IMG/VR virus record: IMGVR_UViG_3300045988_018861
Reading direction: 5' to 3' (one strand)
Origin: a virus
DNA: 35,795 bases
A program made the position numbers and the translations under genes. Positions 1 to 32,359 of this stretch are shown in pieces. Below the pieces are notes generated by a model, which saw only the letters and a program-made list of their open reading frames with translations, had not been told where the DNA came from and did no database searches. Positions within the stretch are counted from its first letter, which is position 1, and each line of letters begins with the position of its first letter.

Positions 1-265
1 CGCCGGAGGCAGTGGCGCAGCTACCGCCGGAGACTTTGGCGCAGCTACCGCCGGAGACAGTGGCGCAGCTACCGCCGGAGGCAGTGGCGCAGCTACCGCC
101 GGAGACTTTGGCGCAGCTACCGCCGGAAACTTTGGCGCAGCTACCGCCGGAGACAGTGGCGCAGCTACCGCCGGATTCCGTGGCGCAGCTACCGCCGGAT
201 TCCGTGGCGCAGCTACCGCCGGAGGCAGTGGCGCAGCTACCGCCGGAGACTTTGGCGCAGCTACA
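1..265 (+). repeat. 24-nt tandem repeat array (about 11 units) inside a coding region; encodes A-T-A-G-x-x-G-A octapeptides
   Basis: Unit is ggcgcagctaccgccgga plus a 6-nt variable patch (gacttt, gacagt, ggcagt, aacttt, ttccgt). It continues the array at 35629-35795. Confidence 0.95.
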
Positions 266-493
266 TCGCGCGGGAGCGCGTCGGTTGGCACAAATGGCAT
301 TGCGTGCGCGCGCGGTTGTGCGCCTATGGCAAGAGGCGGCATCGGCGCCGTGCTGGTGCTCGTCGAAGAGCCATCTAGCAGCTATAACATTGCGCACTGG
401 AAAGCCGTCGAAGTCGATGGCAAAACGGTGAAGGCGGATACGTGGTATCGGCTGAAAAATGGCGAGCTTATGGAAGCAGGTGACGACGAATGA
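2..493 (+). CDS. C-terminal part of the octapeptide-repeat protein (5' part lies at 35275-35795); not in the ORF track because it has no ATG in the window
   Basis: Frame 2 is open from position 2 to TGA at 491-493. It reads AGGSGAATAGDFGAATAGDSGAAT...SRGSASVGTNGIACARG...WKAVEVDGKTVKADTWYRLKNGELMEAGDDE. Confidence 0.85.
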   Translation, partial: AGGSGAATAGDFGAATAGDSGAATAGGSGAATAGDFGAATAGNFGAATAGDSGAATAGFRGAATAGFRGAATAGGSGAATAGDFGAATSRGSASVGTNGIACARGCAPMARGGIGAVLVLVEEPSSSYNIAHWKAVEVDGKTVKADTWYRLKNGELMEAGDDE

Positions 494-645
494 AGGTATT
501 CGGAGACCCGCGCGCGCGGGCAAAGGCGCGCAAATACATTGTGTGGGGCATCGAGGACGGCATCGTCTGTGCGAGCTTCCTCGGCGGCATTGCGCTGGCC
601 GGGTGGGTGTTTCACGTAATCTTCACGGCGCTGGGGGTGGCATGA
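490..645 (+). CDS. Small membrane protein (51 aa), below the ORF-track size cutoff
   Basis: MKVFGDPRARAKARKYIVWGIEDGIVCASFLGGIALAGWVFHVIFTALGVA. ATGA start/stop overlaps at both ends (490-493 and 642-645). AGGTGA lies 8 nt upstream. C-terminal hydrophobic helix. Confidence 0.55.
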   Translation: MKVFGDPRARAKARKYIVWGIEDGIVCASFLGGIALAGWVFHVIFTALGVA

Positions 646-1037
646 TGCAGCACCTCGGTGACATCACAAAACTCGACGGCGCGACCATCGATCCGGTGTG
701 GTGCGTGACGGGTGGCAGCCCATGTCAGGATCTGAGCATCGCTGGCAAGCGCGCCGGTCTCGCAGGCGCGCGAAGCGGCCTGTTTATGGAGCAAATCAGA
801 GTGATAAAGGAGATGCGGGAGCATGACAAACAGCTTGGCTGGGCAGGAGAGCTTATTCGTCCCAGATACATGGTCTGGGAAAACGTCCCCGGAGCGCTCA
901 GCAGCAACAGAGGACGAGACTTCGCGGCCGTGCTCGAAGAGACGATCCGCATCGTCGAACCGGAAGCCCCCGGTATTGAAGTGCCTACAAAAGGCTGGCC
1001 TACCTGGGGCGGGTATCGGGACGTGGACGGACGATGA
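642..1037 (+). CDS. DNA (cytosine-5) methyltransferase fragment, motifs IV and VI only; ends at an in-frame TGA
   Basis: MMQHLGDITKLDG...GGSPCQDLS (PCQ at 720-728) and MVWENVPG (ENVPG at 879-893). The start overlaps the upstream ORF's stop (ATGA). No motif I upstream. Confidence 0.8.
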   Translation: MMQHLGDITKLDGATIDPVWCVTGGSPCQDLSIAGKRAGLAGARSGLFMEQIRVIKEMREHDKQLGWAGELIRPRYMVWENVPGALSSNRGRDFAAVLEETIRIVEPEAPGIEVPTKGWPTWGGYRDVDGR

Positions 1038-2097
1038 AGTGTGGCTTGGCGAGTCCACGACGCGCAATACTGGGGAGTGCCCCAGCGTCGCCGTCGAATC
1101 GCGCTTGTCGCAGATTTTGGAGGCGACACCGCCCACGAAATACTGTTTGAGCGCGCGGGCGTGTCAGGGAATCTTGAACCGCGCGGCGAGGCGGGGGAAA
1201 GCCCTACCGGAAATGCTGAAAGCGGCGTTAATCCGGCAGTCACAAGAAGTATCACCGCAAGAGCGGATGGAAGCCCCTGCGCTGTGCGCCGCCTTTAAGC
1301 TAGGCAACAGTGAACAGGCGCGGAGCATCGGCTATCAGGAGGAGCTGTCCCCTACACTGAACGCCGAGTGCGGCGGGAATAAGCCTGCTGTGGTTACACC
1401 TGCGGCATACGGCATCTGCTCTTACGCCAGCAACAGTATGAAATCATCGAACCCGCACAGCGGCGTCTACAAAGCGGACACCAGCCGGACGCTTGACCTG
1501 AATGGCGGGAATCCGGCTTGCAATCAGGGTGGCATTGCCGTGGTGCAAAGGGCGTATCAGATGCAGGGCTTTGGCGATTACCGCGAAGCTGACGTCGCCA
1601 GCTCCTGCAAACAGCGAGACTACAAGGACAGCACAGATCTGGTTATCGGAATTGACGGAGAATGCAATGCCTATATAGAACAATATGGCACACTGCGAGC
1701 GCACGCGAGCGGCGGTGCGGAAGAAACGCTTATGCATCGCATGGTCGTGCGGCGTCTGACCCCGCTGGAATGTGAACGGCTTCAGGGATTTCCGGATGGC
1801 TGGACGGACATCGGCGACTACACCGACAGCACCGGCAAGAAGCGCAAGACCTCCGACAGCGCGCGGTACAAGGCGCTCGGCAACAGCATCGCGCTGCCGT
1901 TCTGGCGCTGGATGTTCGGGCGCATGGCGGCCTATCTGCCGGAAGGTGCGACACTCGGCAGCCTGTTTGATGGCATCGGCGGATTCCCGCTGTGCTGGGA
2001 GGATGTACACGGTGTCGGGACGGCAATCTGGGCAAGCGAGATTGAGGAGTTTCCAATCGCCGTGACGAAAAAGAGATTTGGAGGGGTAAAAACATGA
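823..2097 (+). CDS. DNA (cytosine-5) methyltransferase, target-recognition region + motifs IX, X and then motif I at the C-terminus; overlaps 642-1298 in the +1 frame
   Basis: RRLTPLECERLQGFPDGW (1750-1794), YKALGNSIALP (GNS at 1879-1887), then GSLFDGIGGFP...WASEIEEFPIAVTKKRF (FDGIGG at 1966-1983). AAGGAG at 807-812 precedes ATG 823. The frame is open from 805 to 2097. Confidence 0.85.
   Translation: MTNSLAGQESLFVPDTWSGKTSPERSAATEDETSRPCSKRRSASSNRKPPVLKCLQKAGLPGAGIGTWTDDEVWLGESTTRNTGECPSVAVESRLSQILEATPPTKYCLSARACQGILNRAARRGKALPEMLKAALIRQSQEVSPQERMEAPALCAAFKLGNSEQARSIGYQEELSPTLNAECGGNKPAVVTPAAYGICSYASNSMKSSNPHSGVYKADTSRTLDLNGGNPACNQGGIAVVQRAYQMQGFGDYREADVASSCKQRDYKDSTDLVIGIDGECNAYIEQYGTLRAHASGGAEETLMHRMVVRRLTPLECERLQGFPDGWTDIGDYTDSTGKKRKTSDSARYKALGNSIALPFWRWMFGRMAAYLPEGATLGSLFDGIGGFPLCWEDVHGVGTAIWASEIEEFPIAVTKKRFGGVKT
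1038..1298 (+). CDS. Same-frame continuation of the methyltransferase after the TGA (motif VIII); possibly pseudogenised or read through
   Basis: SVAWRVHDAQYWGVPQRRRRIALVADFGGDTAHEILFE (QRRRR at 1083-1097). Same frame as 642-1037. Stops at TAA 1296-1298. Confidence 0.6.
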   Translation, partial: SVAWRVHDAQYWGVPQRRRRIALVADFGGDTAHEILFERAGVSGNLEPRGEAGESPTGNAESGVNPAVTRSITARADGSPCAVRRL

Positions 2098-5492: not shown

Positions 5493-6098
5493 ATGAAATT
5501 GAACGTTGTGTATAAGAAACTCCGCGAAATTACACCGTATGATAAAAATGCGAAAAAGCATGATAAGACCCAGATTGCAAATGTTGCGGAAAGTATCAAG
5601 CAATACGGCTTTGTGCAGCCGATTGTGATTGACCGCGACGGTGTGATTGTTATCGGCCACTGTCGTGCTCTGGCGGCAAAGAAACTTGGCATGAAAGAAG
5701 TGCCGTGTGTCTGTGTGGATGATCTGACGCCGGAGCAGGTGAACGCTCTGCGGCTGGTAGATAATAAGAGCAACGAGAGCGATTGGGACTTTGATCTGCT
5801 GAAAGATGAACTGCCGGAGTTGGATTTGAGCGATTTTGATTTTGATTTTGATTTTGGCTTGCAAGCCGATGGAGAAGATTATTCACAAGATGAATTTGGC
5901 GATGAATTTTCGTTGCCAGATGGCGATAAACCAGAAATCTGCCAAATGACATTTACCCTACACCAACAGCAAAAGGAATTGATTGAATACGCAATTAGCA
6001 TTGTGAAAGATAATGTATCTGAAACATTTGGTAATGCCAACGAAAATGGGAACGCATTGTATGAGGTGATACGGCAATGGGCAGCGCAAAGGAATTGA
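5493..6098 (+). CDS. ParB N-terminal (ParB/Srx-like nuclease) domain protein
   Basis: ...ITPYDKNAKKHDKTQIANVAESIKQYGFVQPIVIDRDGVIVIGHCRALAAKKLGMKEVPCV...LTPEQVNALRLVDNK... Acidic DFDFDFDF linker. Confidence 0.8.
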   Translation: MKLNVVYKKLREITPYDKNAKKHDKTQIANVAESIKQYGFVQPIVIDRDGVIVIGHCRALAAKKLGMKEVPCVCVDDLTPEQVNALRLVDNKSNESDWDFDLLKDELPELDLSDFDFDFDFGLQADGEDYSQDEFGDEFSLPDGDKPEICQMTFTLHQQQKELIEYAISIVKDNVSETFGNANENGNALYEVIRQWAAQRN

Positions 6099-6829
6099 TT
6101 GTAAAAGTTATTCCGAGCAAGGTTGCCGTTCCGTTTGTGAAAACGCACCATTATAGTGGCAAGGTTGTGAATAACAGCAATTTGCATTTCGGCGTGTTTT
6201 ACGAAGGCAGACTTCACGGCGTCATGTCCTTTGGCCCGTCTTTGGATAAGTCAAAAATACAGGGGCTTGTTGAGGGAACCGGGTGGAACGAATTCATCGA
6301 ATTGAACCGTATGGCGTTTGATGATGTGCTGCCGCGTAATAGTGAGAGCCGGGCGATTGCGATTGCGATGAAGCTAATCAGAAAAAACGCGCCTCAAATC
6401 AAATGGGTCATTTCGTTTGCTGATGGTTGCCAATGCGGTGACGGAACAATCTACCGCGCAAGTGGGTTTATCTTGACGGGTTATTCAAGCGGCTCAATGT
6501 GGAAGCTTCCTGATTACCTCGTGAAAATAAACGGCGGGGACGTTGCCCACAGAATGAAAGTGCAAAACAAACGCAGTGCTTTGTCAAGGTATATTCTCCA
6601 AGAAACGCATGGTAAAAACTTAACGATGGAAAAGTGCGTTGAGAAGTTTGGCGGGGAAATTCTTGATGGGAAGATGTTTCGGTATATCTATTTTATCGAT
6701 TCAACATATAGGGATCGGCTTCTCGTTCCGATCATTCCATTTTCCAAAATCGATGAAATGGGCGCTGGAATGTATAAGGGGAAAAAGGTAACGCAAGCTG
6801 AAAGGCATAATAAAAAGCAACCCGAATAA
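6077..6829 (+). CDS. Mom-family-like (GNAT-fold) putative DNA adenine modification protein
   Basis: PFVKTHHYSGK...HFGVFYEG...ELNRMAF...NSESRAIA...ISFADGCQCGDGTIYRASGFILTG...FRYIYF. This pattern matches what I recall of Mom-like acyltransferase-fold proteins. Overlaps the ParB-like gene by 22 nt. Confidence 0.55.
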   Translation: MGSAKELIVKVIPSKVAVPFVKTHHYSGKVVNNSNLHFGVFYEGRLHGVMSFGPSLDKSKIQGLVEGTGWNEFIELNRMAFDDVLPRNSESRAIAIAMKLIRKNAPQIKWVISFADGCQCGDGTIYRASGFILTGYSSGSMWKLPDYLVKINGGDVAHRMKVQNKRSALSRYILQETHGKNLTMEKCVEKFGGEILDGKMFRYIYFIDSTYRDRLLVPIIPFSKIDEMGAGMYKGKKVTQAERHNKKQPE

Positions 6830-8585: not shown

Positions 8586-10019
8586 GTGGTAAACATAAAG
8601 ACGTATCAGGACTTGACCGCGCTCGGCGATAATGAAGCGGCGCGGATGGGTTTCATTCTGGCGGCGATCGGGGAGCACAAAAGCAGCTTTGCGTATAAAA
8701 CTGCATCGCTGGCGGAGCAGTACTATCGCGGATTGAACCCAAAAATCATGCATTATCAGAAAGTGCTTTATGATCTTCGTGGTAAGGCACACGCGGACGC
8801 ATGGAGCGCGAACCACAAGATCGCATCAAACTTTTTTAATTTCGCAGTAACACAGGAAAACCAGTATCTTCTTGGCAATGGCGCGATGTTCGGCAAGGAC
8901 GATACGAAACAGCGGCTTTCCGGCGGCGATAAAGAAATGCATAGCAATCGCTATGAATTTGATAGTCAGTTGCAAAAGGCCGGTAAAGAGGCGCTTATCG
9001 GCGGCGTATCTTTCGGCTTTTGGAATTATGACCATTTGGATGTGTTCTCGCTGACAGAATTTGTGCCGCTGTATGACGAAATGGACGGCGCGTTGAAAGC
9101 TGGCATCCGCTGGTGGCAGGTGGCGGAAGATAAGCCGCTCAGAGCGACACTGTATGAAATCGATGGATACACGGATTACGTCGCGCAGAATGGAGCGGAA
9201 ATCAAATCCGCCGATGATGGTGGGAAGCGGCCTTATATCATTAAACGTCGTGGAGATGCGAAGGACGCTGCGGACAACACCGAAGTGTTTGAAGGCGATA
9301 ATTATCCGGCGTTCCCGATTGTCCCGCTTTATGGTAACGACAAAAAGCAGTCAGAGCTTGTTGGACGGCAGGGAACGCTTGATGCCTTTGACCTGCTGAA
9401 TAGTAACCTTGTCAACAATGTGGACGAGGGAAATTACATTTACTGGGCAATCACAAACTGCGGTGGCATGGACGATGAGGACGATCAAAAATTCATCGAG
9501 CGCATGAAAACCGTCCATGTTGCCCACGTTGATGGTGACGGTAGTGGTGGAGCAAAGGTCGAAGCACACACGGTTGAAACACCGTTTCAGGCTTCCGACA
9601 CGGCGATTTCCACAATCAAAACAAGGTTGTACGAAGATTTTCAGTGCCTGAACGTTGCCGATTTGTCAGCCGCGGCAAAAACGGCAACTGAAATTCGCGC
9701 AGCTTATCAGCCGCTTGATAGCAAGGCGGATATGTACGAATATTGCGTGATTGATTTCGTGCAAAAAATTCTTGCGATCGCGGGGATTGAAGACGAAGTG
9801 AGTTTCAAGCGTTCGAAAATTATCAATCAAAGCGAAGAAATCAACATGATTTTGTCAGCGGCCGAATATCTCGATGATGAAACTGTGACGGAGCAGCTTT
9901 GCTTTATTCTCGGCCTCGGAGAGCAGGCCGACGAGATTATCAAGCGTAAGAGGAACGAGGAAACCGAGAGATTTGAACCGGAAAGCGAAGACGAGGTGAG
10001 CGTTAATGGCGACAATTAA
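8586..10019 (+). CDS. Portal protein
   Basis: 477 aa, directly after TerL; acidic C-terminus. The GTG start is uncertain. Confidence 0.8.
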   Translation: MVNIKTYQDLTALGDNEAARMGFILAAIGEHKSSFAYKTASLAEQYYRGLNPKIMHYQKVLYDLRGKAHADAWSANHKIASNFFNFAVTQENQYLLGNGAMFGKDDTKQRLSGGDKEMHSNRYEFDSQLQKAGKEALIGGVSFGFWNYDHLDVFSLTEFVPLYDEMDGALKAGIRWWQVAEDKPLRATLYEIDGYTDYVAQNGAEIKSADDGGKRPYIIKRRGDAKDAADNTEVFEGDNYPAFPIVPLYGNDKKQSELVGRQGTLDAFDLLNSNLVNNVDEGNYIYWAITNCGGMDDEDDQKFIERMKTVHVAHVDGDGSGGAKVEAHTVETPFQASDTAISTIKTRLYEDFQCLNVADLSAAAKTATEIRAAYQPLDSKADMYEYCVIDFVQKILAIAGIEDEVSFKRSKIINQSEEINMILSAAEYLDDETVTEQLCFILGLGEQADEIIKRKRNEETERFEPESEDEVSVNGDN

Positions 10020-10665
10020 AATCGCGGACGGACGTGGAGAACTGTATCAGTGGGACACTGGCAGAAAAGTCGTAATCGACGATGAAAGCATCAAGCAGGT
10101 GCATTATCAAAACCGTTTTTATGGGCGCACGATTGACGTTGATGTGTCTGACGGTTTTGCAATTATCCCAGATCAGCTTTTGCAATCATTCGCGCCGCTG
10201 GTTGTTTTTGCGTGGGCTGGAAGTGCCGAAGACGGTTACACCAAAATCGAAAAGGCTTTTAAGGTACACAAGCGAAACAAACCAGCCGACTATGTGTTTA
10301 CACCTGTAGACCAGAAGACTTTGGACGACCTGCAAAAACAGATTGGTGACATTGCCGACCTGACGACGGAGGCGAAGGAAAATCTTGTCGCGGCCATCAA
10401 CGAAGCTGCCGCAAGTGGCGGCGCTGGCAGCATGGACTTGCGCGTGGCGGACGGCTATATCCAGTACAGCACGGACAGCGGCATGACGTGGCAAAATCTC
10501 ATTGCCGTGGCAGACCTTAAGGGCGCGGTCGGCCCGCAAGGCCCTGCCGGTGCACCCGGCAAGACACCTGTCAGAGGCACGGACTATTGGACGGCAGCTG
10601 ATAAGCAGGAGATTGTCAACAGCGTCATAGCCGCCCTGCCTGATGGCACGGAGGTGAGCTACTGA
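10006..10665 (+). CDS. Fibre-like protein with a short collagen-like segment
   Basis: ...DLTTEAKENLVAAINEAA... and GPQGPAGAPGKTP (Gly-X-Y). Unusual position between the portal and minor head genes. Confidence 0.55.
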   Translation: MATIKIADGRGELYQWDTGRKVVIDDESIKQVHYQNRFYGRTIDVDVSDGFAIIPDQLLQSFAPLVVFAWAGSAEDGYTKIEKAFKVHKRNKPADYVFTPVDQKTLDDLQKQIGDIADLTTEAKENLVAAINEAAASGGAGSMDLRVADGYIQYSTDSGMTWQNLIAVADLKGAVGPQGPAGAPGKTPVRGTDYWTAADKQEIVNSVIAALPDGTEVSY

Positions 10666-10666
10666 G

Positions 10667-12586
10667 ATGAAAAAGCTCTACGAAGAAACCGCCGTACAGG
10701 ACATTGCAGCAGCTATCCGCGAGAAAAATGGCACTGCAACGAAATACAAAGTCGCGGAGATGGGCGATGCGGTGCGCGGCATCACTGGCGCGGAGGAGGT
10801 TGCGTGGCATCAGTGCCCGGAGGCGGTGCGCAATTATCTGAGCAGTGTGACCTATGATCCCGGCGATTACAGCACATCTCAAATTGCCAGTTATGCCCCC
10901 GCGACAGCAGTGGTGAGCAATTACAAGCCCATCGGGCAGACGGTTGGCGGCGTTACGTACTACAACGAAGTGCCAAATGTGCTCACGCCATTTGCCTCTG
11001 GCGGGAAAGCGGGCACGCTCAAACCGCTGGATGCACTGCGGTGGATTCGCACGCGGGACGGCTCCGCAGAAGCGTGGAACGTGCGCGACCTTGGCGGATG
11101 GGCCTGCGACGGCGGCACGGTGAAATATGGTCTGCTGATTCGCGGCGGGCGTATCTCTGCCGCAGATCGGGCGGTACTGGTCGGCCAGTTCGGTGTGCAG
11201 CATGAAATCGACCTTAGAGGCAAAGAGGGGCGCGACCCGTCCGACGGTGATGTCGCAACAGAATCCCCCCTTGGTAGCGATGTGTGGTTTACGATTGCTG
11301 ACAAGGCAGCGTCCTACGCGCTGACGCCGGTTGCGACGTGGCAGCTCTATCTTCGCTGCGTAATTGACGCAGTTACGCACCGTGAACCCGTATACTTTCA
11401 CTGCACGGCGGGGGCAGACCGCACTGCAACTCTCGCGTGTGTGCTGGAGGGGTTGCTCGGTATGTCCCAATCCGATATCGACAAAGACTATGAATTGACG
11501 TGTTTTTACTCTGGCACTGAAACGGACGCACTTGCACGCCGTCGCAATGAACCAGAATGGAAAAGGCTTATTAACGAAATCAATGCTGTTTCAGGCAGTA
11601 CGTTCCGTGACAAATGTGTACACTTTGCTGTCGAAACTTGCGGAATGTCAATGTCCGATATCAACGCTTTCCGGGTGGCTATGACCGACGGAACGCCGGA
11701 GATGCTGCACTGGTATCAGCCAATCACCAAAAATCTCACAGGCTGCTCTATCAGCAACCCTGCAACTCAGATAGAATATGGTGAGGCGTACACCGCTGTT
11801 CTAGCGGCAGATAGCGGAAAGACGATCACGTCGGTAGTGATCAAAATGGGGGGCGTGGATATCACGGCCACTGCTTACTCGGCTGGCAGCGGTGCAGTCA
11901 ACATCGCCAAGGTTACTGGCGCAATTATGATTACTGCTGCGGCATCTGTTCCCACTGTGACTTACAACATCACGCGCAATCTCACAAACTGTTCATCTTC
12001 TAACACTGCCGACAACATTGCAGAGGGCGCGGCCTATACCACGACGCTCGCCCCGACGGGAACTTTCAAGAAGCTCGGCGCAATCACAGTAACAATGGGT
12101 GGAACGGACATATCCACTTCGGCAGTATCTGGGAACACAATCACAATCGCCAACGTAACTGGCAACATTGGGATTACCTGCGCGGCGGTCATCACAAACA
12201 TCATCGACACCATCGGAATCTCTGCGAACACGCGGCTGAGCACATCGAGCGGCACGAACAAAGAGCAGGTAGGATGGGCGACAATCGGCGCAAATATGGA
12301 TGTGCCGAGCCTGATTCACTTGAAAGCAGGAGACACGCTCCGCATCAAGGGCGCGAGCCTCCCCACTGAGAATGATTGGAAAAGCGCGGCGGCAGAGTAC
12401 AGCGCAACGGCAACGTTGGTATCTACGAGCTACATATACAACGGTCATACATGGAATAGTCTTAATTTCAACAGCGATGGGGACATCGTCACGATAACAG
12501 CGCCCGGCGAGCATTACATCCGCGTAAGTCTGATCTGCACGGACGCGACGGCAGTTATCGCTACCATTAACGAACCGATCACGTAA
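10667..12586 (+). CDS. Multidomain fibre/receptor-binding-like protein carrying a protein-tyrosine-phosphatase-like (CX5R) domain, two Ig-like repeats and a C-terminal beta-sandwich-like domain
   Basis: AWNVRDLGGW...LIRGG...HEIDLRGKE...YFHCTAGADRTAT (HCTAGADRT at 11399-11425). Two ~75-aa repeats: ITKNLTGCSISNP... and ITRNLTNCSSSNT... Confidence 0.7.
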   Translation: MKKLYEETAVQDIAAAIREKNGTATKYKVAEMGDAVRGITGAEEVAWHQCPEAVRNYLSSVTYDPGDYSTSQIASYAPATAVVSNYKPIGQTVGGVTYYNEVPNVLTPFASGGKAGTLKPLDALRWIRTRDGSAEAWNVRDLGGWACDGGTVKYGLLIRGGRISAADRAVLVGQFGVQHEIDLRGKEGRDPSDGDVATESPLGSDVWFTIADKAASYALTPVATWQLYLRCVIDAVTHREPVYFHCTAGADRTATLACVLEGLLGMSQSDIDKDYELTCFYSGTETDALARRRNEPEWKRLINEINAVSGSTFRDKCVHFAVETCGMSMSDINAFRVAMTDGTPEMLHWYQPITKNLTGCSISNPATQIEYGEAYTAVLAADSGKTITSVVIKMGGVDITATAYSAGSGAVNIAKVTGAIMITAAASVPTVTYNITRNLTNCSSSNTADNIAEGAAYTTTLAPTGTFKKLGAITVTMGGTDISTSAVSGNTITIANVTGNIGITCAAVITNIIDTIGISANTRLSTSSGTNKEQVGWATIGANMDVPSLIHLKAGDTLRIKGASLPTENDWKSAAAEYSATATLVSTSYIYNGHTWNSLNFNSDGDIVTITAPGEHYIRVSLICTDATAVIATINEPIT

Positions 12587-12599
12587 AAGGAGGCACAAG

Positions 12600-12659
12600 A
12601 TGGAATTTATTGCTTGCAGCACGGACAATTACCGCGCCGGGCGCACGCAGCCGCGCTGA
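12600..12659 (+). pseudogene. Truncated copy of the 5' end of the endolysin (amidase) gene
   Basis: MEFIACSTDNYRAGRTQPR stop, compared with the endolysin start MEFIACNSDNYRSGRTRPVQ at 22711. Most positions match by eye over about 55 nt. AGGAGG RBS is retained. Confidence 0.7.
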
Positions 12660-12707
12660 AACATTGATACATATATACACTGACGAAGATGAATGGGCGT
12701 GAAATAA

Positions 12708-13625
12708 ATGCCAGATTACGCGCATAGGAAAACGGATAAACAGCTAGATGCCATGGAGCGCAAGCTCCGTGGTATCTACTCGCGCGCACACGTCGAAGTG
12801 CAAAAGTCTTGGAATAAATATATGTTGGAATCAGCCAAAAAAATCAAGTCTTTGCAAGACGCGTATGATTCTGCTAAAAAATCCGGGGATAGAGACGCGA
12901 TAAAAAAAGCTGGCAAAGAGCTTGCGTCCGCGCAACGAGAGCAAACGCTGATGAACGATCACTATAAACGCATGGTAGAGCGCACGGCGCAAGAACTTTC
13001 GCAAGTAAATGAAATGGCTATTGCTTACATAAACGGAGAATTGCCAAAAACTTACGCAACAAATTATAATTTTTTTGGCAATCAGATCTCGCGAGAAGTG
13101 CCGAAATATACGTTTGAACTTGTGGACGCTGGAACGGTTGCGAATCTTATCAAATCCGATAAATCCCTTTTGCCGACGAGAAAATTGGATGTCGCTAAAG
13201 ACAAGCGATGGAATACCAAAAAAATGAATTCCGAGGTGCTACAAGGGATTTTGCAGGGCGAAAGTATGCCGGAGATTGCCGAGCGGCTGCAAAAAGTTGA
13301 GCGCATGAATGCCGAATCCGCTATCAGAAACGCAAGAACGATGGTAACTGGCGCGGAGAATAAAGGCAGAATGGATATGCTATACCGCGCGCGTGACGCT
13401 GGAATTGATGTAAAAAGGAGATGGATTGCAACAAAAGATAACCGAACGCGTGATTGGCACGCAGAGCTTGATGGCGTTCTGAAAGATTTAGACGAGCCGT
13501 TTGTAAATTCCGTTGGTGAAATCATGTACCCTGGCGACCCCGGCGCAAGCGGTGCAAATGTATATAACTGCCGTTGCAGTCTGGGATATGAAATTATTGG
13601 CTTTAGAAAGGTTGGTAGACGATGA
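12708..13625 (+). CDS. Head morphogenesis / minor capsid protein (SPP1 gp7-like)
   Basis: ...NRTRDWHAELDG...PGDPGASGANVYNCRCSL... is the characteristic C-terminal motif. Confidence 0.8.
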   Translation: MPDYAHRKTDKQLDAMERKLRGIYSRAHVEVQKSWNKYMLESAKKIKSLQDAYDSAKKSGDRDAIKKAGKELASAQREQTLMNDHYKRMVERTAQELSQVNEMAIAYINGELPKTYATNYNFFGNQISREVPKYTFELVDAGTVANLIKSDKSLLPTRKLDVAKDKRWNTKKMNSEVLQGILQGESMPEIAERLQKVERMNAESAIRNARTMVTGAENKGRMDMLYRARDAGIDVKRRWIATKDNRTRDWHAELDGVLKDLDEPFVNSVGEIMYPGDPGASGANVYNCRCSLGYEIIGFRKVGRR

Positions 13626-13951
13626 GCAGCGTTATTTTTGAGGACAACGGCGAAGAGGTACTTGCCGCCATGAAAAGGGCGCTCGTTCGTGGATTAGAAG
13701 CGATCGGCATGAAGGCGGAAACGTATGCGAAAGACAACACACCTGTCAGAACCGGCCGCCTTCGGAACAGCATGACACACGCCGTCGATAATGACGAACC
13801 CGCCGCTTACGTTGGTACAAATGTAAATTATGGGATTTTTGTCGAGAACGGAACGCAAAAGCAAAAAGCGAATCATATGCTTAAGCGAGCCGCGACAGAG
13901 CATGGAGACGAATACAAACGTCTGCTTGAAGAAAGCATGAAAAACGCCTGA
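13622..13951 (+). CDS. HK97 gp10-like protein
   Basis: ...AKDNTPVRTGRLRNSM...NVNYGIFVENGT... Confidence 0.6.
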   Translation: MSSVIFEDNGEEVLAAMKRALVRGLEAIGMKAETYAKDNTPVRTGRLRNSMTHAVDNDEPAAYVGTNVNYGIFVENGTQKQKANHMLKRAATEHGDEYKRLLEESMKNA

Positions 13952-21220: not shown

Positions 21221-22693
21221 ATGTTTGTATGCTATGTAGACGGAGACCTGCTTTTTTCCACCACGCAGATAAGCGGTCGAGAAATCATCTCCGGCTCGCT
21301 GACGGAAGAAATTAACGCGGTCAGCTCGCTTGAATTCACTCTGCCGCCGTCAAACGACATGGCATCGCAGGTAGAACCACATACGTCTGTAATTAAGCTG
21401 GAATCCGATGGCGTGGAAATCTTCCGTGGTACTGCGTCAAGCGTGAGCAAAAATTTTCGCGGTGATACCGTCGTAAGCTGCGATGGCATGATCGCGTTGA
21501 TGTCCGATGTCATCAAAGAGCCGTTCACCGTTTCCGCACGCGGGATTGAAAGCTATGTTACGGCCATTGTTAAAAATTACAACGATGGTGTTACCGCTGA
21601 CAAGGAGATTAAGGTTGGACAAGTCGTTGGGTTTGAAAGCCAGACATTCTCAGTTTCGCACAGCAAAGAGTGTAAAAACATCTTTGAGTTGCTGAAAGAG
21701 CTGAGATCGGAAAAGGGAGGCTATATCTGGGCATCCTACATCGGCGGCGATGTGTATATCAATTACACAAAAACAATCGGAAAAGAAAACAGCCAGCAAA
21801 TCGCGTTTGGCTCGAATCTCGTTAATATCGAGGGGCAGCTCGAAGTCGGTACACTCGTAACACGAGTTTGGCCGCTTGGCAAAGATGGGCTTACGATTGC
21901 AAGCGTTAACGACGGCAAGGCGTATCTGCAAAACGAAGCAGTCGAATTGCGCTATGGGCGCGTGGATAAAACAATACAGGTTGACAGTGACGATCCGTCT
22001 GTTGTAAAATCGTATGGGCAGGCGTATCTAACCCGGTACGCCGCGATGAACAACACCATCGCCTTGACAGCGATTGACCTGCACAATCTCGATAAAGCAA
22101 TTTCGTCGTTTGAAGTCGGTGATTCTGTTCGTGTGCTTTCTCCCCCGCATGGGATTGATGCGGAGATGGTGGTAAATAACATTTCGACCGACTTGGTGCG
22201 GATTTCAAATTCGAGAATCACACTTGGAGCAAAAAAGGGCAGCATCACGAGCATTATCTCGTCTGGCGGCGGGGCTAGTGGCTCTTTCGGTGGGGATTCC
22301 GGCGGCGTTGGTGTTGATTATGTTATCGACCAGGGCACGACCGGTAAATGGGTTTGGCGTAAATGGGCGTCCGGTATCGCAGAGATGTGGGCTACGTTCG
22401 ACACGGACAAACTGGTAATGACAGAGCAGACATGGGGTTCGCTATATACCGCATCGTGGATGGGCCTTGCATCAAACAAGGAAGCGCGCGCATATCCGTT
22501 TGCCTTTATCGAAAGCCCAATCGTGTCGGCAACGCCAACAGTTGGGAGCGGAAACATCTGGCTTGCCACAAACACGGAGAACGACATAGGCACAAGGTTG
22601 ACGCACGCCCCGGCATATCAGTGCGTTAGGGCGTCCGACGCGACGGTTAATAACCCGCAGATCAGCTACTATGTCATGGGCAAGTACAAATAA
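21221..22693 (+). CDS. Tail-associated (Tal / tail endopeptidase-like) protein
   Basis: 490 aa following Dit; Gly-rich linker SSGGGASGSFGGDSGG. Confidence 0.6.
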   Translation: MFVCYVDGDLLFSTTQISGREIISGSLTEEINAVSSLEFTLPPSNDMASQVEPHTSVIKLESDGVEIFRGTASSVSKNFRGDTVVSCDGMIALMSDVIKEPFTVSARGIESYVTAIVKNYNDGVTADKEIKVGQVVGFESQTFSVSHSKECKNIFELLKELRSEKGGYIWASYIGGDVYINYTKTIGKENSQQIAFGSNLVNIEGQLEVGTLVTRVWPLGKDGLTIASVNDGKAYLQNEAVELRYGRVDKTIQVDSDDPSVVKSYGQAYLTRYAAMNNTIALTAIDLHNLDKAISSFEVGDSVRVLSPPHGIDAEMVVNNISTDLVRISNSRITLGAKKGSITSIISSGGGASGSFGGDSGGVGVDYVIDQGTTGKWVWRKWASGIAEMWATFDTDKLVMTEQTWGSLYTASWMGLASNKEARAYPFAFIESPIVSATPTVGSGNIWLATNTENDIGTRLTHAPAYQCVRASDATVNNPQISYYVMGKYK

Positions 22694-22710
22694 ATGGAGG
22701 CGAATAGCTG

Positions 22711-23565
22711 ATGGAATTCATTGCTTGCAACTCGGACAATTACCGTTCTGGGCGCACACGGCCGGTGCAGTACATTGTGATGCACTACACGGCAAACAAC
22801 GGCGACACCGCGCGTAACAACTGCGATTACTATCACCGCGCGAGCGGCCTGCAGGCGAGCGCGCACTATTTTGTGGACGAGTATGGCGCGATGCAGTCCG
22901 TGCGAGAGGGCGACACGGCGTGGCACTGCGGCGCTCGGGCGTACTGGCATCCAGAGTGTCGCAACGCCAATAGCATCGGCATTGAGATGTGCAGCCGCAA
23001 GCGCGCCGATGGCAGCTACTACATCAAGCCGGAGACCGTGGCAAACGCCGCGGCGCTGGCACGGGAGATCATGCAGCGCTATGGCATCGACACCGACCAC
23101 GTGCTGCGGCACTACGACGTGACGGGCAAGCGCTGCCCCATGCCGTGGGTGGATGATCCGGCGCAGTGGACGGCATTTAAGGAGATGCTGACGCCGAAAA
23201 GCACTACTACAGACGAGGAGGATGATGACATGGTACGATACAGCAAAATTGAGGATGTTCCAGATTGGGCGCAGGACACGGTGCGCGAGATGATGGATGC
23301 GGGCGCTCTAAAGGGTGACGAGCACGGATGCATTGACCTTTCGCGGGACATGGTGCGCGGCATGGTGATCGGCAAGCGGTACGCGGACTCGCGCAGCCCT
23401 AGATATGCAACGATTGACGACGTGCCAGGATGGGCACGCGAGGAGACGCAGAAGCTGGTGGAGCGCGGCGCTCTGAAAGGCAATGCGCACGGCAAGATGG
23501 GCGTATCGATGGATATGCTGCGCACGATGATCGTGTGCCAGCGGATGATCGACGAAAACAAGTGA
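22711..23565 (+). CDS. Endolysin: N-acetylmuramoyl-L-alanine amidase (amidase_2/PGRP type) with two SLH-like wall-binding repeats
   Basis: YIVMHYTANNGD...HYFVDE...WHCG...NSIGIEMC...VLRHYDVTGKRCP. Repeats: IEDVPDWAQDTVREMMDAGALKG and IDDVPGWAREETQKLVERGALKG. Confidence 0.9.
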   Translation: MEFIACNSDNYRSGRTRPVQYIVMHYTANNGDTARNNCDYYHRASGLQASAHYFVDEYGAMQSVREGDTAWHCGARAYWHPECRNANSIGIEMCSRKRADGSYYIKPETVANAAALAREIMQRYGIDTDHVLRHYDVTGKRCPMPWVDDPAQWTAFKEMLTPKSTTTDEEDDDMVRYSKIEDVPDWAQDTVREMMDAGALKGDEHGCIDLSRDMVRGMVIGKRYADSRSPRYATIDDVPGWAREETQKLVERGALKGNAHGKMGVSMDMLRTMIVCQRMIDENK

Positions 23566-23579
23566 TGGAGGGACTACAT

Positions 23580-23834
23580 ATGAACATCAACTGGAAACTT
23601 AGATTACAGAACAAAGCGACGTTGACCGCGCTCGTCATGGCGCTGGTGGCGCTGGTGTATCAGGTGCTCGGTGTGTGCGGTGTCGTGCCGCGTGTGTCAC
23701 AGGATCAGGTGACGACGATCATCAGCATGGTTATCAACATTTTGTGTCTGCTCGGCATCGTGGTTGACCCGACGACGGCCGGAGTTGGCGACAGCGTGCG
23801 GGCTATGAGCTATGACAAGCCTAAAAAATACTAA
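23580..23834 (+). CDS. Holin (phi LC3 / LL-H-like family)
   Basis: MNINWKLRLQNKATLTALVMALVALV...LGIVVDPTTAGVGDS...; GGAGGG RBS. Confidence 0.8.
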   Translation: MNINWKLRLQNKATLTALVMALVALVYQVLGVCGVVPRVSQDQVTTIISMVINILCLLGIVVDPTTAGVGDSVRAMSYDKPKKY

Positions 23835-31600: not shown

Positions 31601-31817
31601 AAATTTCCGGGAGATTCGGGAGCGAAGAGGATATTCACTTAACCGTCTACAGCACGTGACCGGCATTAGCCGCGCAACTTTATCGAAGTATCAGGCCGGG
31701 CTCGTATCGCCACGGCTAAACATGTTGATCGCAATCGCAGACGCGCTGCACGTCGGCCTTGATGATCTGACGGGATATACTGCAAAGCCGTCGTTTGAAG
31801 ATAGGTTTTGCAGATGA
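31584..31817 (+). CDS. XRE-family HTH transcriptional regulator
   Basis: FRE IRERRGYSLNRLQHVTGISRATLSKYQAG...IADAL; GGAGGGG RBS before ATG 31584. Confidence 0.75.
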   Translation: MGTFTENFREIRERRGYSLNRLQHVTGISRATLSKYQAGLVSPRLNMLIAIADALHVGLDDLTGYTAKPSFEDRFCR

Positions 31818-32359
31818 ACGTTGAGCTGATTAAATATCCGTCAGACGCTGACTGGATGTTTTGCAAGGAATGTACGCTTGTTACCGTGGGCAAGCATCCC
31901 GTCCAGTCACCATCGCAGGCGTGGAAAAGCGAGATTTTGGAGGCGCGGCACAGCCCGATCAGGACGTTGCAGTTCGCTTTCCGTATCACCGATTTGCCAT
32001 ACTGGGTTAGCGTCCATCTATGCAGGCACGTCCATGCGCAGCCGTTTGTACGCAGCCAGCGCAACGATCGGCAGAGCGATTATGACCGCACGAAAGCCCC
32101 GCAGGACGCGCCAGTTGATATGATCTGGTACCTCAACGCAGAAGAGCTGCAAATCATCGCCAACAAGAGGCTATGCAACATGGCTAGTCCAGAAACGCGC
32201 GAGGTTGTGAAAAAAATGTGCCGCGAGGTGCTGAAAGTGTGCCCAGAGTTTACAGGGCTGCTTGTGCCATCTTGCGCCTATCAGGGTGGTGCGTGCCATG
32301 AATTCAACGGGGGATGTAAAAAAAATAAAAAACTACTTGACGCGATACGGCTGATGTAG
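31814..32359 (+). CDS. ThyX-like (flavin-dependent thymidylate synthase fold) protein, divergent signature
   Basis: ...RTLQFAFRITDLPYWVSVHLCRHVHAQPFVRSQRNDRQ...NAEELQIIANKRLCNMASPETREV... RHVHAQ replaces the canonical RHR..S. Confidence 0.5.
   Translation: MNVELIKYPSDADWMFCKECTLVTVGKHPVQSPSQAWKSEILEARHSPIRTLQFAFRITDLPYWVSVHLCRHVHAQPFVRSQRNDRQSDYDRTKAPQDAPVDMIWYLNAEELQIIANKRLCNMASPETREVVKKMCREVLKVCPEFTGLLVPSCAYQGGACHEFNGGCKKNKKLLDAIRLM

What the first reader, a model, noticed from the sequence alone, without database searches (positions are those of the whole stretch)
10006..12586. Fibre/receptor-binding-like cassette displaced into the head module, carrying a CX5R tyrosine-phosphatase-like domain
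Two genes that look like tail-fibre proteins sit between the portal gene and the SPP1-gp7-like minor head gene:
- a 219-aa protein with a collagen-like GPQGPAGAPG segment;
- a 639-aa protein with a fibre-type N-terminus (QDIAAAIREKNGTATKYKVAEMGDAVRGI), a Y_phosphatase3-like domain (NVRDLGGW...DLRGKE...HCTAGADRT), two Ig-like repeats and a beta-sandwich-like tip.
The regular tail module ends with Tal and has no separate receptor-binding protein. A virion-associated phosphatase-fold domain could act on phosphodiester-linked wall polymers (teichoic acids or phosphoglycans) as a depolymerase. It could also be an ejected effector, or decorate the capsid (Ig-like domains are typical of head decoration).
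Basis: partly seen in the sequence, partly recalled or inferred. Interest (0 to 1): 0.65.

Follow-up and report, generated by a model that had tools for sequence, protein, structure and literature searches.

The report
Relocated phage tail-fibre cassette with phosphatase
A gut-bacterial phage keeps a two-gene tail-fibre cassette between its head genes, moved there from the usual end-of-tail position, and the outer fibre protein carries an intact cysteine phosphatase, an enzyme type not found described on phage fibres.

Summary
ORF219 (10006-10665) and ORF639 (10667-12586) lie between portal and MuF, and Tal is followed directly by the endolysin.

ORF639 has a Y_phosphatase3 domain (Pfam E 4.7e-22). 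A high-confidence model matches C. difficile PTP and M. tuberculosis PtpB. The HCX5R loop is near-invariant across 149 family representatives, and dN/dS on the domain is 0.09.

In most related loci the same gene is the last tail gene before the lysis genes, in several unrelated phage backbones. In the window, the 67 nt after ORF639 are a fossil of the ribosome-binding site plus the first 18 codons of that endolysin. This shows the cassette was imported from a lysis-adjacent position.

The portal-MuF junction is a recurrent slot. Sister phages carry other distal genes there with the same 40-aa N-terminal adaptor. One has an intact metallophosphoesterase in place of the cysteine phosphatase. One lineage keeps its whole fibre-plus-lysis block there.

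Best reading: an accessory tail fibre that displays a phosphoesterase towards a phosphorylated cell-surface polymer. Virion location, activity and substrate are untested. I rate it a new variant of a known kind (enzymatic receptor-binding proteins).

The parts
8586..10019 (+). Portal gene (SPP1 gp6-like). It forms the left border of the slot. Homology to cassette-less relatives ends near 9962.
   Evidence: PF05133 2.2e-32 and phrog_64. Breakpoint mapping by blastn.
10006..10665 (+). ORF219, the proximal fibre segment. The N-terminal domain (aa 1-135) is the presumed virion anchor. It is followed by a BNR-like motif, a short collagen-like stretch and a C-terminal connector.
   Evidence: ORF. 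Weak PHROG tail-fibre and tail-assembly hits. 2721 homologues of 206-382 aa, most with PF01391 collagen. Partner genes in other backbones hit many PHROG tail-fibre families.
10522..10566 (+). Collagen-like segment of ORF219: five G-X-Y triplets, aa 173-187.
   Evidence: Read from the sequence. Homologues carry long PF01391 repeats at this position.
10519..10662 (+). C-terminal connector of ORF219 (aa 172-219, ...TPVRGTDYWTAADKQEIVNSVIAALPDGTEVSY). This piece travels with the N-terminus of ORF639 into other phage backbones.
   Evidence: Only this segment is shared (75-89% identity) with the upstream gene in L028, L030, L031, L038, L070, L074, L080 and L082. A linker protein in L096 carries both connector types.
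10667..12586 (+). ORF639, the distal fibre protein: adaptor, pre-domain, CX5R phosphatase, two Ig-like domains and a tip.
10667..10786 (+). N-terminal two-helix adaptor of ORF639 (aa 1-40). It is shared with alternative distal proteins in sister phages.
   Evidence: The same 40 aa head a Metallophos protein (L111), a BspA-LRR protein (L109) and another PTP allele (L108). Helices at aa 7-21 and 29-38 in the model.
10787..11068 (+). Family-specific pre-domain (aa 41-134), conserved together with the phosphatase domain.
   Evidence: The core aa 40-350 is covered in 134 of 149 family representatives. pLDDT about 90.
11069..11701 (+). PtpB-like CX5R phosphatase domain (aa 135-345).
   Evidence: PF13350 4.7e-22. 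Foldseek: 8DHJ/8DHI E 7e-8 and 1YWF 4e-7, probability 1.0. Family profile against 8dhi: 4.9e-17. dN/dS 0.09.
11399..11425 (+). Catalytic P-loop HCTAGADRT (aa 245-253; Cys246, Arg252).
   Evidence: Among 149 family representatives, counting those aligned at each column: Cys in 141 of 142, Arg in 137 (Lys in 5), His in 139 of 142.
11714..12196 (+). Two tandem Ig-like beta domains (aa 350-431 and 432-510).
   Evidence: AlphaFold model, pLDDT 80-94. Only generic tandem-Ig fold matches, none significant. Two unannotated faecal phage records match this region.
12197..12583 (+). C-terminal beta-sandwich tip (aa 511-639). It is the most variable part and the presumed receptor-binding end.
   Evidence: Model. 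Lowest pairwise identity, 72%. dN/dS 0.19. It occurs without the phosphatase in P0256, P0267 and P0279.
12587..12659 (+). Fossil of the neighbouring endolysin gene: ribosome-binding site AAGGAGG plus ATG and 18 codons (MEFIACSTDNYRAGRTQP), then R-stop. It marks the right-hand recombination joint.
   Evidence: 94.5-97% identical over 73 nt to the end of ORF639 and the start of the Amidase_2 endolysin gene that follows the cassette in L001-L004, L030, L031, L036-L038, L041, L042, L073 and L074. Sequence read.
12708..13625 (+). MuF / SPP1 gp7-like minor head gene. It forms the right border of the slot.
   Evidence: PF04233 2.1e-16. In about 40 related phages portal abuts MuF, with a gap of -13 to 377 bp.
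21221..22693 (+). Tal (tail-associated protein, 490 aa). Its C-terminal domain (about aa 351-490, nt 22271-22693) co-travels with the ORF219-type anchor in phages where the cassette sits at the tail end.
   Evidence: PF06605 4.7e-27, TIGR01665. A TalC-type domain 48-83% identical lies immediately upstream of the ORF219 homologue in 8 of 8 tail-end loci that carry the anchor. GC 0.544 against 0.486 for the Tal N-terminal part.
22711..23565 (+). Functional Amidase_2 endolysin directly after Tal. It is the intact counterpart of the fossil at 12587-12659.
   Evidence: PF01510 1.7e-29. Its N-terminus is MEFIACNSDNYRSGRTRP.

Best explanation
Window 10006-12659 is a horizontally acquired two-gene tail-fibre cassette. 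It was recombined into the portal-MuF junction of a roughly 35.6-kb siphophage of gut Clostridia (Oscillospiraceae-like hosts).

**How it is built and expressed**
- The cassette is expressed as part of the late operon, because the ORF219 start overlaps the portal stop.
- ORF219 is the proximal segment. It has an N-terminal anchor domain, a short collagen-like triple helix and a roughly 45-aa C-terminal connector.
- ORF639 is the distal segment. In order, it has a 40-aa helical adaptor that mates with that connector, a family-specific pre-domain, a PtpB-like CX5R phosphatase with all catalytic motifs, two Ig-like domains and a variable beta-sandwich tip.

**How it most likely works**
- The fibre attaches at the tail tip (the Dit/Tal hub). 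The Tal C-terminal domain is the most likely partner in this phage.
- The fibre binds the cell surface through its tip.
- The phosphatase then removes phosphate esters from a phosphorylated surface glycopolymer, acting as a receptor-modifying enzyme.
- The fibre is probably accessory rather than essential.

**Shown**
- Gene structure, domain identities and fold.
- Purifying selection on the gene.
- The default position of homologues at the end of the tail module.
- The endolysin fossil after ORF639.
- Modular swaps of the distal gene in sister phages.

**Inferred**
- Incorporation into the virion and the attachment site.
- Catalytic activity and substrate.
For: **Position**
- The identical protein P0046 (83% identical to ORF639) sits just before the endolysin in a siphovirus backbone, after a homologous Tal, and in two podovirus-like backbones.
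- Of 54 close-homologue loci with enough downstream sequence, 27 are followed by an Amidase_2 endolysin and 5 by MuF. The rest are followed mostly by other holins and lysins.

**Direction of the move**
- An 18-codon endolysin fossil with its ribosome-binding site lies right after ORF639.
- The cassette has GC 0.54-0.55, against 0.49 for portal and 0.46 for MuF.
- Portal abuts MuF in about 40 related phages.

**Fibre nature**
- Partner proteins carry collagen repeats and match PHROG tail-fibre families.
- The adaptor and connector pieces are exchanged as modules.
- The tip and the adaptor are the most variable parts and the enzyme core the most conserved.
- Phages with the ORF219-type anchor at the tail end share a TalC-type domain with the window but no head, neck or tail-tube protein.

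**Enzyme**
- PF13350 at 79.6 bits.
- A model with pLDDT 92 matches 8DHI/8DHJ and PtpB at probability 1.0.
- N138, R140, D141, G143, G144, H245, C246, D251 and R252 are near-invariant in 149 representatives.
- dN/dS is 0.09.

**Phosphoester theme**
- Sister phage L111 has the same adaptor, Ig-like domain and tip, but a Metallophos domain with intact DxH, GD, GNHD, H and GHxH motifs.
- A distant Metallophos relative is the 'putative tail protein' encoded after Tal in an induced Latilactobacillus phage.
- A GlpQ-like phosphodiesterase domain on the central tail spike of a Staphylococcus phage is a published precedent (PMC13433997).
Against: - There are no virion proteomics or structures for any family member. 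PHROGs has no family for ORF639, and annotated phage genomes have no homologue of the phosphatase part.
- In three of the eight other contigs of the window's own lineage the cassette is damaged or deleted, while the essential structural genes give full-length matches. These are L107, L110 and L112. The cassette may therefore be dispensable, or these genomes may be defective.
- Docking to the Tal C-terminal domain is not general. The L114-type phage keeps the anchor domain (45% overall identity), but its 697-aa Tal lacks that domain. Co-occurrence could also reflect simple gene linkage.
- From established enzymology, CX5R enzymes hydrolyse phosphomonoesters, not the phosphodiester backbone of teichoic acids.
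- The putative general-acid Asp of the DLR motif (D182) is Asp in only 74 of 149 representatives, and Asn in 41.
Confidence: 0.7

Rival explanations
1. The phosphatase domain is a binding module rather than an enzyme. The fibre would use the phosphate-binding P-loop pocket as a lectin-like site for a phosphorylated polymer, with little or no turnover.
For: The DLR aspartate that aligns with the proposed general acid of PtpB-type enzymes is replaced by Asn, Gln or Glu in about 40% of family representatives. From established PTP enzymology, Asp-to-Asn or Asp-to-Ala changes give substrate-trapping variants. Receptor-binding proteins need binding, not catalysis.
Against: Cys246 and Arg252 are almost invariant, and the window protein keeps D182. 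Purifying selection is strongest on this domain. The swap with an intact metallophosphoesterase in L111 is easier to explain by catalysis than by binding.
Confidence: 0.12
2. The two proteins form a head or neck fibre, or decorate the capsid. Their position next to the portal gene would then reflect where they assemble.
For: They are encoded between portal and MuF, and this arrangement recurs in several lineages whose portals are 46-68% identical. ORF639 has Ig-like domains. The cassette looks dispensable.
Against: The same anchor domain (46-60% identical) and the same distal protein occur after Tal in phages with no detectable similarity in portal, capsid, connectors or tail tube, but with a homologous Tal C-terminal domain. 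The endolysin fossil shows that the head position is secondary. In L114-type phages the endolysin and holin also sit in this slot, so the slot does not signify head function.
Confidence: 0.08
3. ORF639 is a non-structural accessory enzyme of the lysis module, or a moron gene. It would be released at lysis and act on the wall or on debris without being part of the virion.
For: In most phages it lies immediately upstream of the endolysin and holin.
Against: It has no signal peptide or hydrophobic N-terminus (sequence). It has an exchangeable N-terminal adaptor paired with the C-terminal connector of a collagen-like partner, and a variable tip. This is fibre architecture. In the window it is separated from the lysis genes by 10 kb.
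Confidence: 0.06
4. ORF639 is an internal protein packaged with MuF and ejected into the cell, where it dephosphorylates host phosphoproteins such as tyrosine-kinase regulators of capsule synthesis.
For: It lies next to MuF. It gives weak hits to polymorphic-toxin DSP-PTPase models (PF22785, E 0.016). Classical substrates of the fold are phosphoproteins.
Against: It is not fused to MuF, and a 121-bp spacer holding the endolysin fossil separates the two genes. Only 5 of 54 close-homologue loci have the MuF neighbourhood. The collagen partner, Ig-like domains and variable tip do not fit a capsid-internal cargo.
Confidence: 0.04

Closest known systems
PtpB-type atypical CX5R phosphatases (Pfam Y_phosphatase3: M. 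tuberculosis PtpB, PDB 1YWF/2OZ5; C. difficile PTP, PDB 8DHI/8DHJ)
   Same: Same fold and the same three sequence motifs: NxRDxGG, DLR...E and HCxxGxDRT.
   Different: The known members are free-standing soluble or secreted enzymes of about 240-300 aa. Here the domain is embedded in a 639-aa modular phage fibre protein, with an N-terminal adaptor, a conserved 95-aa pre-domain, Ig-like domains and a tip. Identity to the solved structures is only about 18%.
Enzymatic receptor-binding proteins of phages of Gram-positive bacteria that act on phosphate-containing wall polymers. Examples are the GlpQ/GDPD-like petal domain of the Staphylococcus phage 812 central spike (PMC13433997) and, from my own knowledge, the phi29 gp12 appendages that degrade teichoic acid.
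   Same: A tail-tip protein that carries a phosphoester-directed hydrolase. The gene lies at the distal end of the tail module in most family members.
   Different: The catalytic fold and chemistry differ. This is a cysteine phosphomonoesterase, not a metal-dependent phosphodiesterase or a beta-helix enzyme. No activity or substrate is known. In the window the genes are not in the tail module.
Collagen-like, multi-segment tail fibres of phages of Firmicutes (PHROG 'collagen like minor tail' and tail-fibre families)
   Same: ORF219 and its homologues have G-X-Y repeats of variable length and match several PHROG tail-fibre families. Connector and adaptor pieces are exchanged as modules.
   Different: The collagen stretch in the window copy is reduced to five triplets, and Pfam Collagen is not reached for it.
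MuF-associated polymorphic toxins of temperate phages (effector domains fused to MuF; from my own knowledge)
   Same: An enzyme domain is encoded at the portal/MuF locus.
   Different: It is a separate gene, not a MuF fusion. It arrived from a lysis-adjacent position and has fibre architecture.

Membership tests
Y_phosphatase3 / PtpB-like CX5R phosphatases | Profile match above the curated Pfam threshold | tested here: met
   PF13350 at 79.6 bits against a cut-off of 22.2, aa 135-312. The family profile matches 8dhi_A at E 4.9e-17.
Y_phosphatase3 / PtpB-like CX5R phosphatases | P-loop H-C-X5-R-(S/T) with the catalytic Cys and Arg | tested here: met
   HCTAGADRT at aa 245-253. Among 149 representatives, Cys in 141 of the 142 aligned at that column, Arg in 137 plus Lys in 5.
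Y_phosphatase3 / PtpB-like CX5R phosphatases | PTP/DSP alpha-beta fold | tested here: met
   Model pLDDT 92.1, pTM 0.87. Foldseek probability 1.0 to 8DHJ, 8DHI, 1YWF and 2OZ5, with target-normalised TM-score 0.53-0.65.
Y_phosphatase3 / PtpB-like CX5R phosphatases | General-acid aspartate (DLR motif) | tested here: inconclusive
   D182 is present in the window protein. The column is Asp in only 74 of 149 representatives, with Asn 41, Gln 10 and Glu 6. Assigning this residue as the general acid rests on my recollection of PtpB and on the motif alignment.
Y_phosphatase3 / PtpB-like CX5R phosphatases | Phosphatase activity | not testable with these tools
   Needs an enzyme assay.
Phage tail fibre / receptor-binding protein | Encoded at the distal end of the tail module (after Dit/Tal, before lysis) | tested here: not met
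   Not met in the window, where the genes lie between portal and MuF. It is met for most homologues, and the endolysin fossil shows the window copy came from such a position.
Phage tail fibre / receptor-binding protein | Modular build: exchangeable N-terminal attachment piece and variable C-terminal tip | tested here: met
   The adaptor is shared with Metallophos, LRR and other PTP distal proteins. The tip is the most variable domain. The tip also occurs without the phosphatase.
Phage tail fibre / receptor-binding protein | Presence in the virion at the tail tip, and a role in adsorption | not testable with these tools
   Needs virion proteomics, electron microscopy and adsorption assays.
Collagen-like tail fibre proteins (PF01391) | Run of G-X-Y repeats reaching the Pfam Collagen threshold | tested here: not met
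   ORF219 has only five triplets and gives no Pfam Collagen hit. Its homologues at 50-95% identity do carry PF01391. ORF219 is therefore a shortened relative.
Ig-like capsid decoration proteins (Hoc-like) | Ig-like domains together with capsid attachment and co-inheritance with a head module | tested here: not met
   Ig-like domains are present. However, the gene is inherited with tail and lysis genes across unrelated head modules.
MuF polymorphic toxins | Effector domain fused to the C-terminus of a MuF domain | tested here: not met
   ORF639 is a separate gene upstream of MuF, with a 121-bp spacer between them.

The most novel reading that the evidence does not exclude
Cysteine (CX5R) phosphatases displayed on virions are a new, widespread class of receptor-modifying enzymes of phages that infect strictly anaerobic gut and rumen Clostridia. 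They would be functionally interchangeable with metallophosphoesterases on the same fibre scaffold. They would dephosphorylate a phosphorylated cell-wall glycopolymer, either to allow adsorption or to stop progeny sticking to debris. A catalytic cysteine exposed on a virion would be viable only in a reducing habitat, which would explain the host distribution.
Probability: 0.35. Interest if true: 0.8.

Novelty: new variant of a known kind. Interest (0 to 1): 0.62.

Why it matters
**A common but unstudied protein family**
- Receptor-binding proteins decide which bacteria a phage can infect. Almost nothing is known about them for the dominant gut Clostridia (the Faecalibacterium, Subdoligranulum and Ruminococcus relatives).
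- This family is large. The exhaustive representative search found 420 clusters at 50% identity with E below 1e-30, and 7667 with E below 0.001.
- It is currently labelled only 'tyrosine phosphatase family protein' or 'hypothetical'.

**What follows if the phosphatase acts on the cell surface**
- It would add a new catalytic fold to the repertoire of virion-borne enzymes.
- It would point to a phosphorylated surface polymer as a common receptor in these bacteria.
- It would supply ready-made modular parts (adaptor, enzyme, Ig-like domains, tip) for engineering host range.

**Annotation consequence**
- The relocation shows that in one clade of siphophages the portal-MuF junction is a regular slot for adsorption genes, and even for lysis genes.
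- Annotation pipelines that infer function from module position will mislabel these genes.

Tried and rejected
- **First structure prediction.** An MSA of 38 close homologues gave pLDDT below 50 for the phosphatase half. A fold search with that model gave only generic tandem-Ig matches, none significant. I solved this by harvesting diverse homologues with a profile.
- **PDB sequence searches.** ORF219, Tal and Dit gave nothing significant.
- **PHROGs and NCBIfam.** Neither has a family for ORF639, and NCBIfam has none for ORF219.
- **Annotated phage genomes.** No homologue of the phosphatase part or of ORF219 was found.
- **Literature searches.** I searched for PF13350 or Y_phosphatase3 in phages, for 8DHI, and for phosphatase domains in tail fibres. 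None returned a relevant paper.
- **Tal C-terminal domain as the universal docking site for ORF219.** I considered this and weakened it. It co-occurs in 8 of 8 tail-end loci, but it is absent from the Tal of the L114-type phage, which keeps the anchor domain. Gene linkage alone could explain the co-occurrence.
- **Promoter and terminator scan of 9500-13200.** Nothing above the shuffled expectation.
- **Host identification by cluster names.** No organism names were returned for the closest proteins. The host inference rests on MAG titles.
- **A frame error of my own.** In one search I first translated the small ORF after ORF639 one base out of frame. The correct ATG is at 12600, giving MEFIACSTDNYRAGRTQPR.

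Full report
**1.

- ORF219 (10006-10665) and ORF639 (10667-12586) are real open reading frames on the + strand.
- Upstream is an SPP1-type portal (PF05133, 2e-32) and downstream is a MuF / SPP1 gp7-like gene (PF04233, 2e-16).
- The full gene order is TerS, TerL, portal, ORF219, ORF639, MuF, an HK97 gp10-like gene, scaffold, major capsid protein, connectors, major tail protein, chaperones, tape measure, Dit, Tal (490 aa), Amidase_2 endolysin, holin.
- Tal is followed after 17 nt by the endolysin.
- The ORF219 ATG overlaps the portal stop codon, and ORF219 and ORF639 are 1 nt apart. No promoter or terminator signal above chance lies in 9500-13200. The cassette is therefore read as part of the late operon.

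**2. What ORF639 is**

- Pfam gives Y_phosphatase3 at 79.6 bits, against a cut-off of 22.2.
- A first AlphaFold model, built from close homologues, resolved only the C-terminal half. It shows two Ig-like domains (about aa 350-431 and 432-510) and a beta-sandwich tip (511-639).
- I then harvested diverse relatives with a profile. A second model of aa 1-352 reached pLDDT 92.1 and pTM 0.87.
- The best structural matches of that model are the Clostridioides difficile protein tyrosine phosphatase (8DHJ/8DHI, E 7e-8) and Mycobacterium tuberculosis PtpB (1YWF/2OZ5), all at probability 1.0.
- A family profile aligns the NxRDxGG, DLR..E and HCxxGxDRT motifs to 8DHI at E 4.9e-17.
- I checked motif conservation in 149 representatives of clusters at 50% identity. 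N138, R140, D141, G143 and G144 are present in every aligned sequence. C246 is present in 141 of 142, and R252 in 137 with Lys in 5 more. The DLR aspartate (D182) is Asp in only 74 and Asn in 41.
- Across 24 distinct gene copies, dN/dS is 0.15 overall. It is 0.09 for the phosphatase domain and 0.19-0.21 for the tip and the first Ig-like domain. dS is near saturation, so these ratios are approximate.
- The enzyme core is also the most conserved part (92% mean pairwise identity). The tip and the N-terminal adaptor are the most variable (72-73%).

**3. What ORF219 is**

- It has 2721 detectable homologues of 206-382 aa. Most carry Pfam Collagen repeats where the window copy has only five G-X-Y triplets.
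- The partner genes in other backbones (273 aa in L001, 331 aa in L003, 319 aa in L109) hit Collagen and many PHROG tail-fibre families.
- In many loci only the last roughly 45 aa of ORF219 (TPVRGTDYWTAADKQEIVNSVIAALPDGTEVSY) are shared with the gene upstream of an ORF639 homologue.
- The first 40 aa of ORF639 are shared with quite different distal proteins.
- A 258-aa protein in L096 has the N-terminal adaptor, a collagen run and the C-terminal connector.
- This pattern points to a chain of fibre segments joined connector to adaptor.

**4. The cassette is displaced, and the direction of the move is recorded in the sequence**

- The identical protein P0046 (83% identical to ORF639) lies immediately upstream of the endolysin in three settings. 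One is a siphovirus with an HK97-type head and a Tal homologous to the window's. The other two are different podovirus-like backbones.
- I classified 54 loci with close homologues and enough downstream sequence. In 27 the next gene is an Amidase_2 endolysin, and in 5 it is MuF. In most of the remainder the next genes are other holins and lysins, including Phage_holin_4_1, CHAP, NlpC/P60, GH25, M15 and Amidase_3.
- In about 40 phages with a related head module, portal abuts MuF with a gap of -13 to 377 bp.
- In the window, the sequence after the ORF639 stop (12587-12653) is the ribosome-binding site plus the first 18 codons (MEFIACSTDNYRAGRTQP) of the Amidase_2 gene that follows the cassette in tail-end phages. 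Identity is 94.5-97% over the 73 nt (12581-12653) that also span the end of ORF639. The reading frame then stops, and the sequence upstream of MuF resumes.
- The left breakpoint lies between 9962 and 10011, within the last codons of the portal gene.
- The cassette is also richer in G+C (0.54-0.55) than portal (0.49) and MuF (0.46). The C-terminal part of Tal and the endolysin share this higher G+C.

**5. The portal-MuF junction is a recurrent slot**

The slot holds different contents in the window's own lineage, defined here as MuF at least 91% identical:

| Locus | Content of the slot |
|---|---|
| L106 | Intact cassette like the window's |
| L108 | A phosphatase allele only 38% identical |
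| L111 | A 629-aa protein with the same adaptor, an Ig-like domain and a related tip, but a Metallophos domain with all five metallophosphoesterase motifs intact |
| L109 | A BspA-type leucine-rich-repeat protein, followed by a CBM5/12 protein |
| L107, L110 | Damaged cassettes |
| L112 | Cassette deleted |

- The deletions in L107 and L112 join at short G-R-T microhomologies to the endolysin fossil.
- In L107, L110 and L112 the portal, MuF, capsid and Tal genes still give full-length matches.
- In a sister lineage (L114, L149, L171, L113, L132; portal 61% identical where covered, MuF about 59%) the slot holds five genes. These are an ORF219-like gene, a BspA-LRR distal gene (or, in L132, a phosphatase one), a CBM5/12 protein, an Amidase_3 endolysin and an SPP1-type holin.
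- In that lineage, nothing of the kind follows the 697-aa Tal.
- L052 and L053 (portal 47% identical) have a 518-aa collagen protein plus a 643-aa phosphatase protein in the slot.

**6. Where the fibre attaches**

- Every tail-end locus that carries the ORF219-type N-domain (8 of 8) has a domain 48-83% identical to the window's Tal C-terminus immediately upstream. These loci show no detectable similarity to the window's portal, capsid, connectors or tail tube. This argues against a head or neck location and for the tail tip.
- The L114-type Tal lacks that C-terminal domain, although the ORF219-like protein is 45% identical overall. Adjacency could also reflect gene linkage alone.
- I therefore treat the tail tip as likely, and the exact partner as unresolved.

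**7. Mechanism**

- Shown: the fibre-like modular architecture, an intact and conserved phosphatase, and in-situ replacement by an unrelated phosphoesterase.
- Inferred: the fibre binds the cell through its tip and presents a phosphoesterase to a phosphorylated surface polymer.
- A related precedent is the GlpQ-like phosphodiesterase domain of the Staphylococcus phage 812 central spike, proposed to cleave teichoic acid (PMC13433997).
- A distant relative of the L111 Metallophos domain is a 'putative tail protein' encoded right after Tal in an induced Latilactobacillus phage.
- From established enzymology, CX5R enzymes are monoesterases. Removal of terminal or side-chain phosphates, or phosphate-dependent binding, is therefore more plausible than depolymerising a phosphodiester backbone.
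- All host assignments are gut or rumen anaerobes: Subdoligranulum, Oscillospiraceae, Ruminococcus, Butyricicoccaceae, other Clostridia, and two Coriobacteriia-type MAGs. This fits an exposed catalytic cysteine needing a reducing habitat. That last point is my inference.

**8. Novelty**

- Family members are in public databases only with automatic names. Examples are three BFVD entries from uncultivated human-associated phages and names such as 'tyrosine-protein phosphatase'.
- No paper on such domains in phage fibres was found.
- The kind of system, an enzymatic receptor-binding fibre exchanged as a module, is well known. The catalytic fold on it, and the head-module slot, are the new aspects.
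- I rate it a new variant of a known kind.
- Interest is 0.62. The core reading has confidence 0.7. The surface-phosphatase reading has probability about 0.35.

Noticed in passing
window 1-264 and 35629-35795: The window begins (11 copies) and ends (7 copies) inside the same 24-nt tandem repeat, consensus CGCCGGAGACAGTGGCGCAGCTAC. In the frame of ORF 12-431 it encodes AQLPPE[TA][LV] octapeptide repeats. The contig is therefore circular or terminally redundant and was broken within the array. It is probably a complete genome of about 35.6 kb. Relatives' contigs that are not obviously partial are 33-36.6 kb. No integrase-sized ORF was seen.
   Followed up: partly
L111:7992-9881 (sister phage, same slot): A 629-aa distal fibre protein has the same 40-aa adaptor, an Ig-like domain and a related tip. 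In place of the CX5R phosphatase it has a Metallophos domain with intact DxH, GD, GNHD, H and GHxH motifs. This is a non-homologous replacement of one phosphoesterase by another.
   Followed up: yes
L114:6520-9906 with L175; also L149, L171, L113, L132: In a sister lineage the whole adsorption-plus-lysis block lies between portal and MuF. The block comprises a collagen fibre, a BspA-LRR protein, a CBM5/12 protein, an Amidase_3 endolysin and an SPP1-type holin. The 697-aa Tal is followed only by two small ORFs and a DNA-repair exonuclease.
   Followed up: yes
L107:7226-8439, L110:3279-4875, L112:6808-6990: In close relatives the cassette is selectively damaged. In L107, ORF219 is frameshifted and ORF639 is cut at about aa 160. 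In L110, ORF219 is split and ORF639 has an internal deletion that removes the phosphatase. In L112 the whole cassette is deleted. The joints in L107 and L112 sit at G-R-T microhomologies with the endolysin fossil. Other structural genes give full-length matches.
   Followed up: partly
window 13622-13951: An HK97 gp10-like (tail-completion / Neck1, phrog_5) gene sits between MuF and the scaffold gene. This is an unusual place for a neck protein, and it is conserved in the related lineages.
   Followed up: no
window 5493-6829: A ParB_N-domain protein (5493-6098) is followed by a Mom-family protein (6077-6829, PF25680, 4e-54) just upstream of the terminase genes. This suggests a Mom-like DNA modification module.
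   Followed up: no
window 459-2097: Two overlapping ORFs in different frames (459-1037 and 823-2097) each match part of the C-5 cytosine DNA methylase profile, the N-terminal part and the C-terminal part respectively. This could be a frameshifted or split methylase, or two separate genes.
   Followed up: no
window 31808-32359: This ORF matches only the last 50 positions of the ThyX (Thy1) profile. It may be a truncated or diverged thymidylate synthase gene.
   Followed up: no
L096:7163-7939: A 258-aa 'linker' fibre protein carries the ORF639-type N-terminal adaptor, a long collagen run and the ORF219-type C-terminal connector. This implies that fibres of variable segment number can be assembled.
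   Followed up: partly
window 22271-23834: The C-terminal domain of Tal (GC 0.544), the endolysin (0.601) and the holin (0.534) are richer in G+C than the N-terminal part of Tal (0.486) and Dit (0.479). In L003 the Tal C-terminal domain is 83% identical but the N-terminal part only 38%. The recombination unit therefore seems to start inside Tal.
   Followed up: partly
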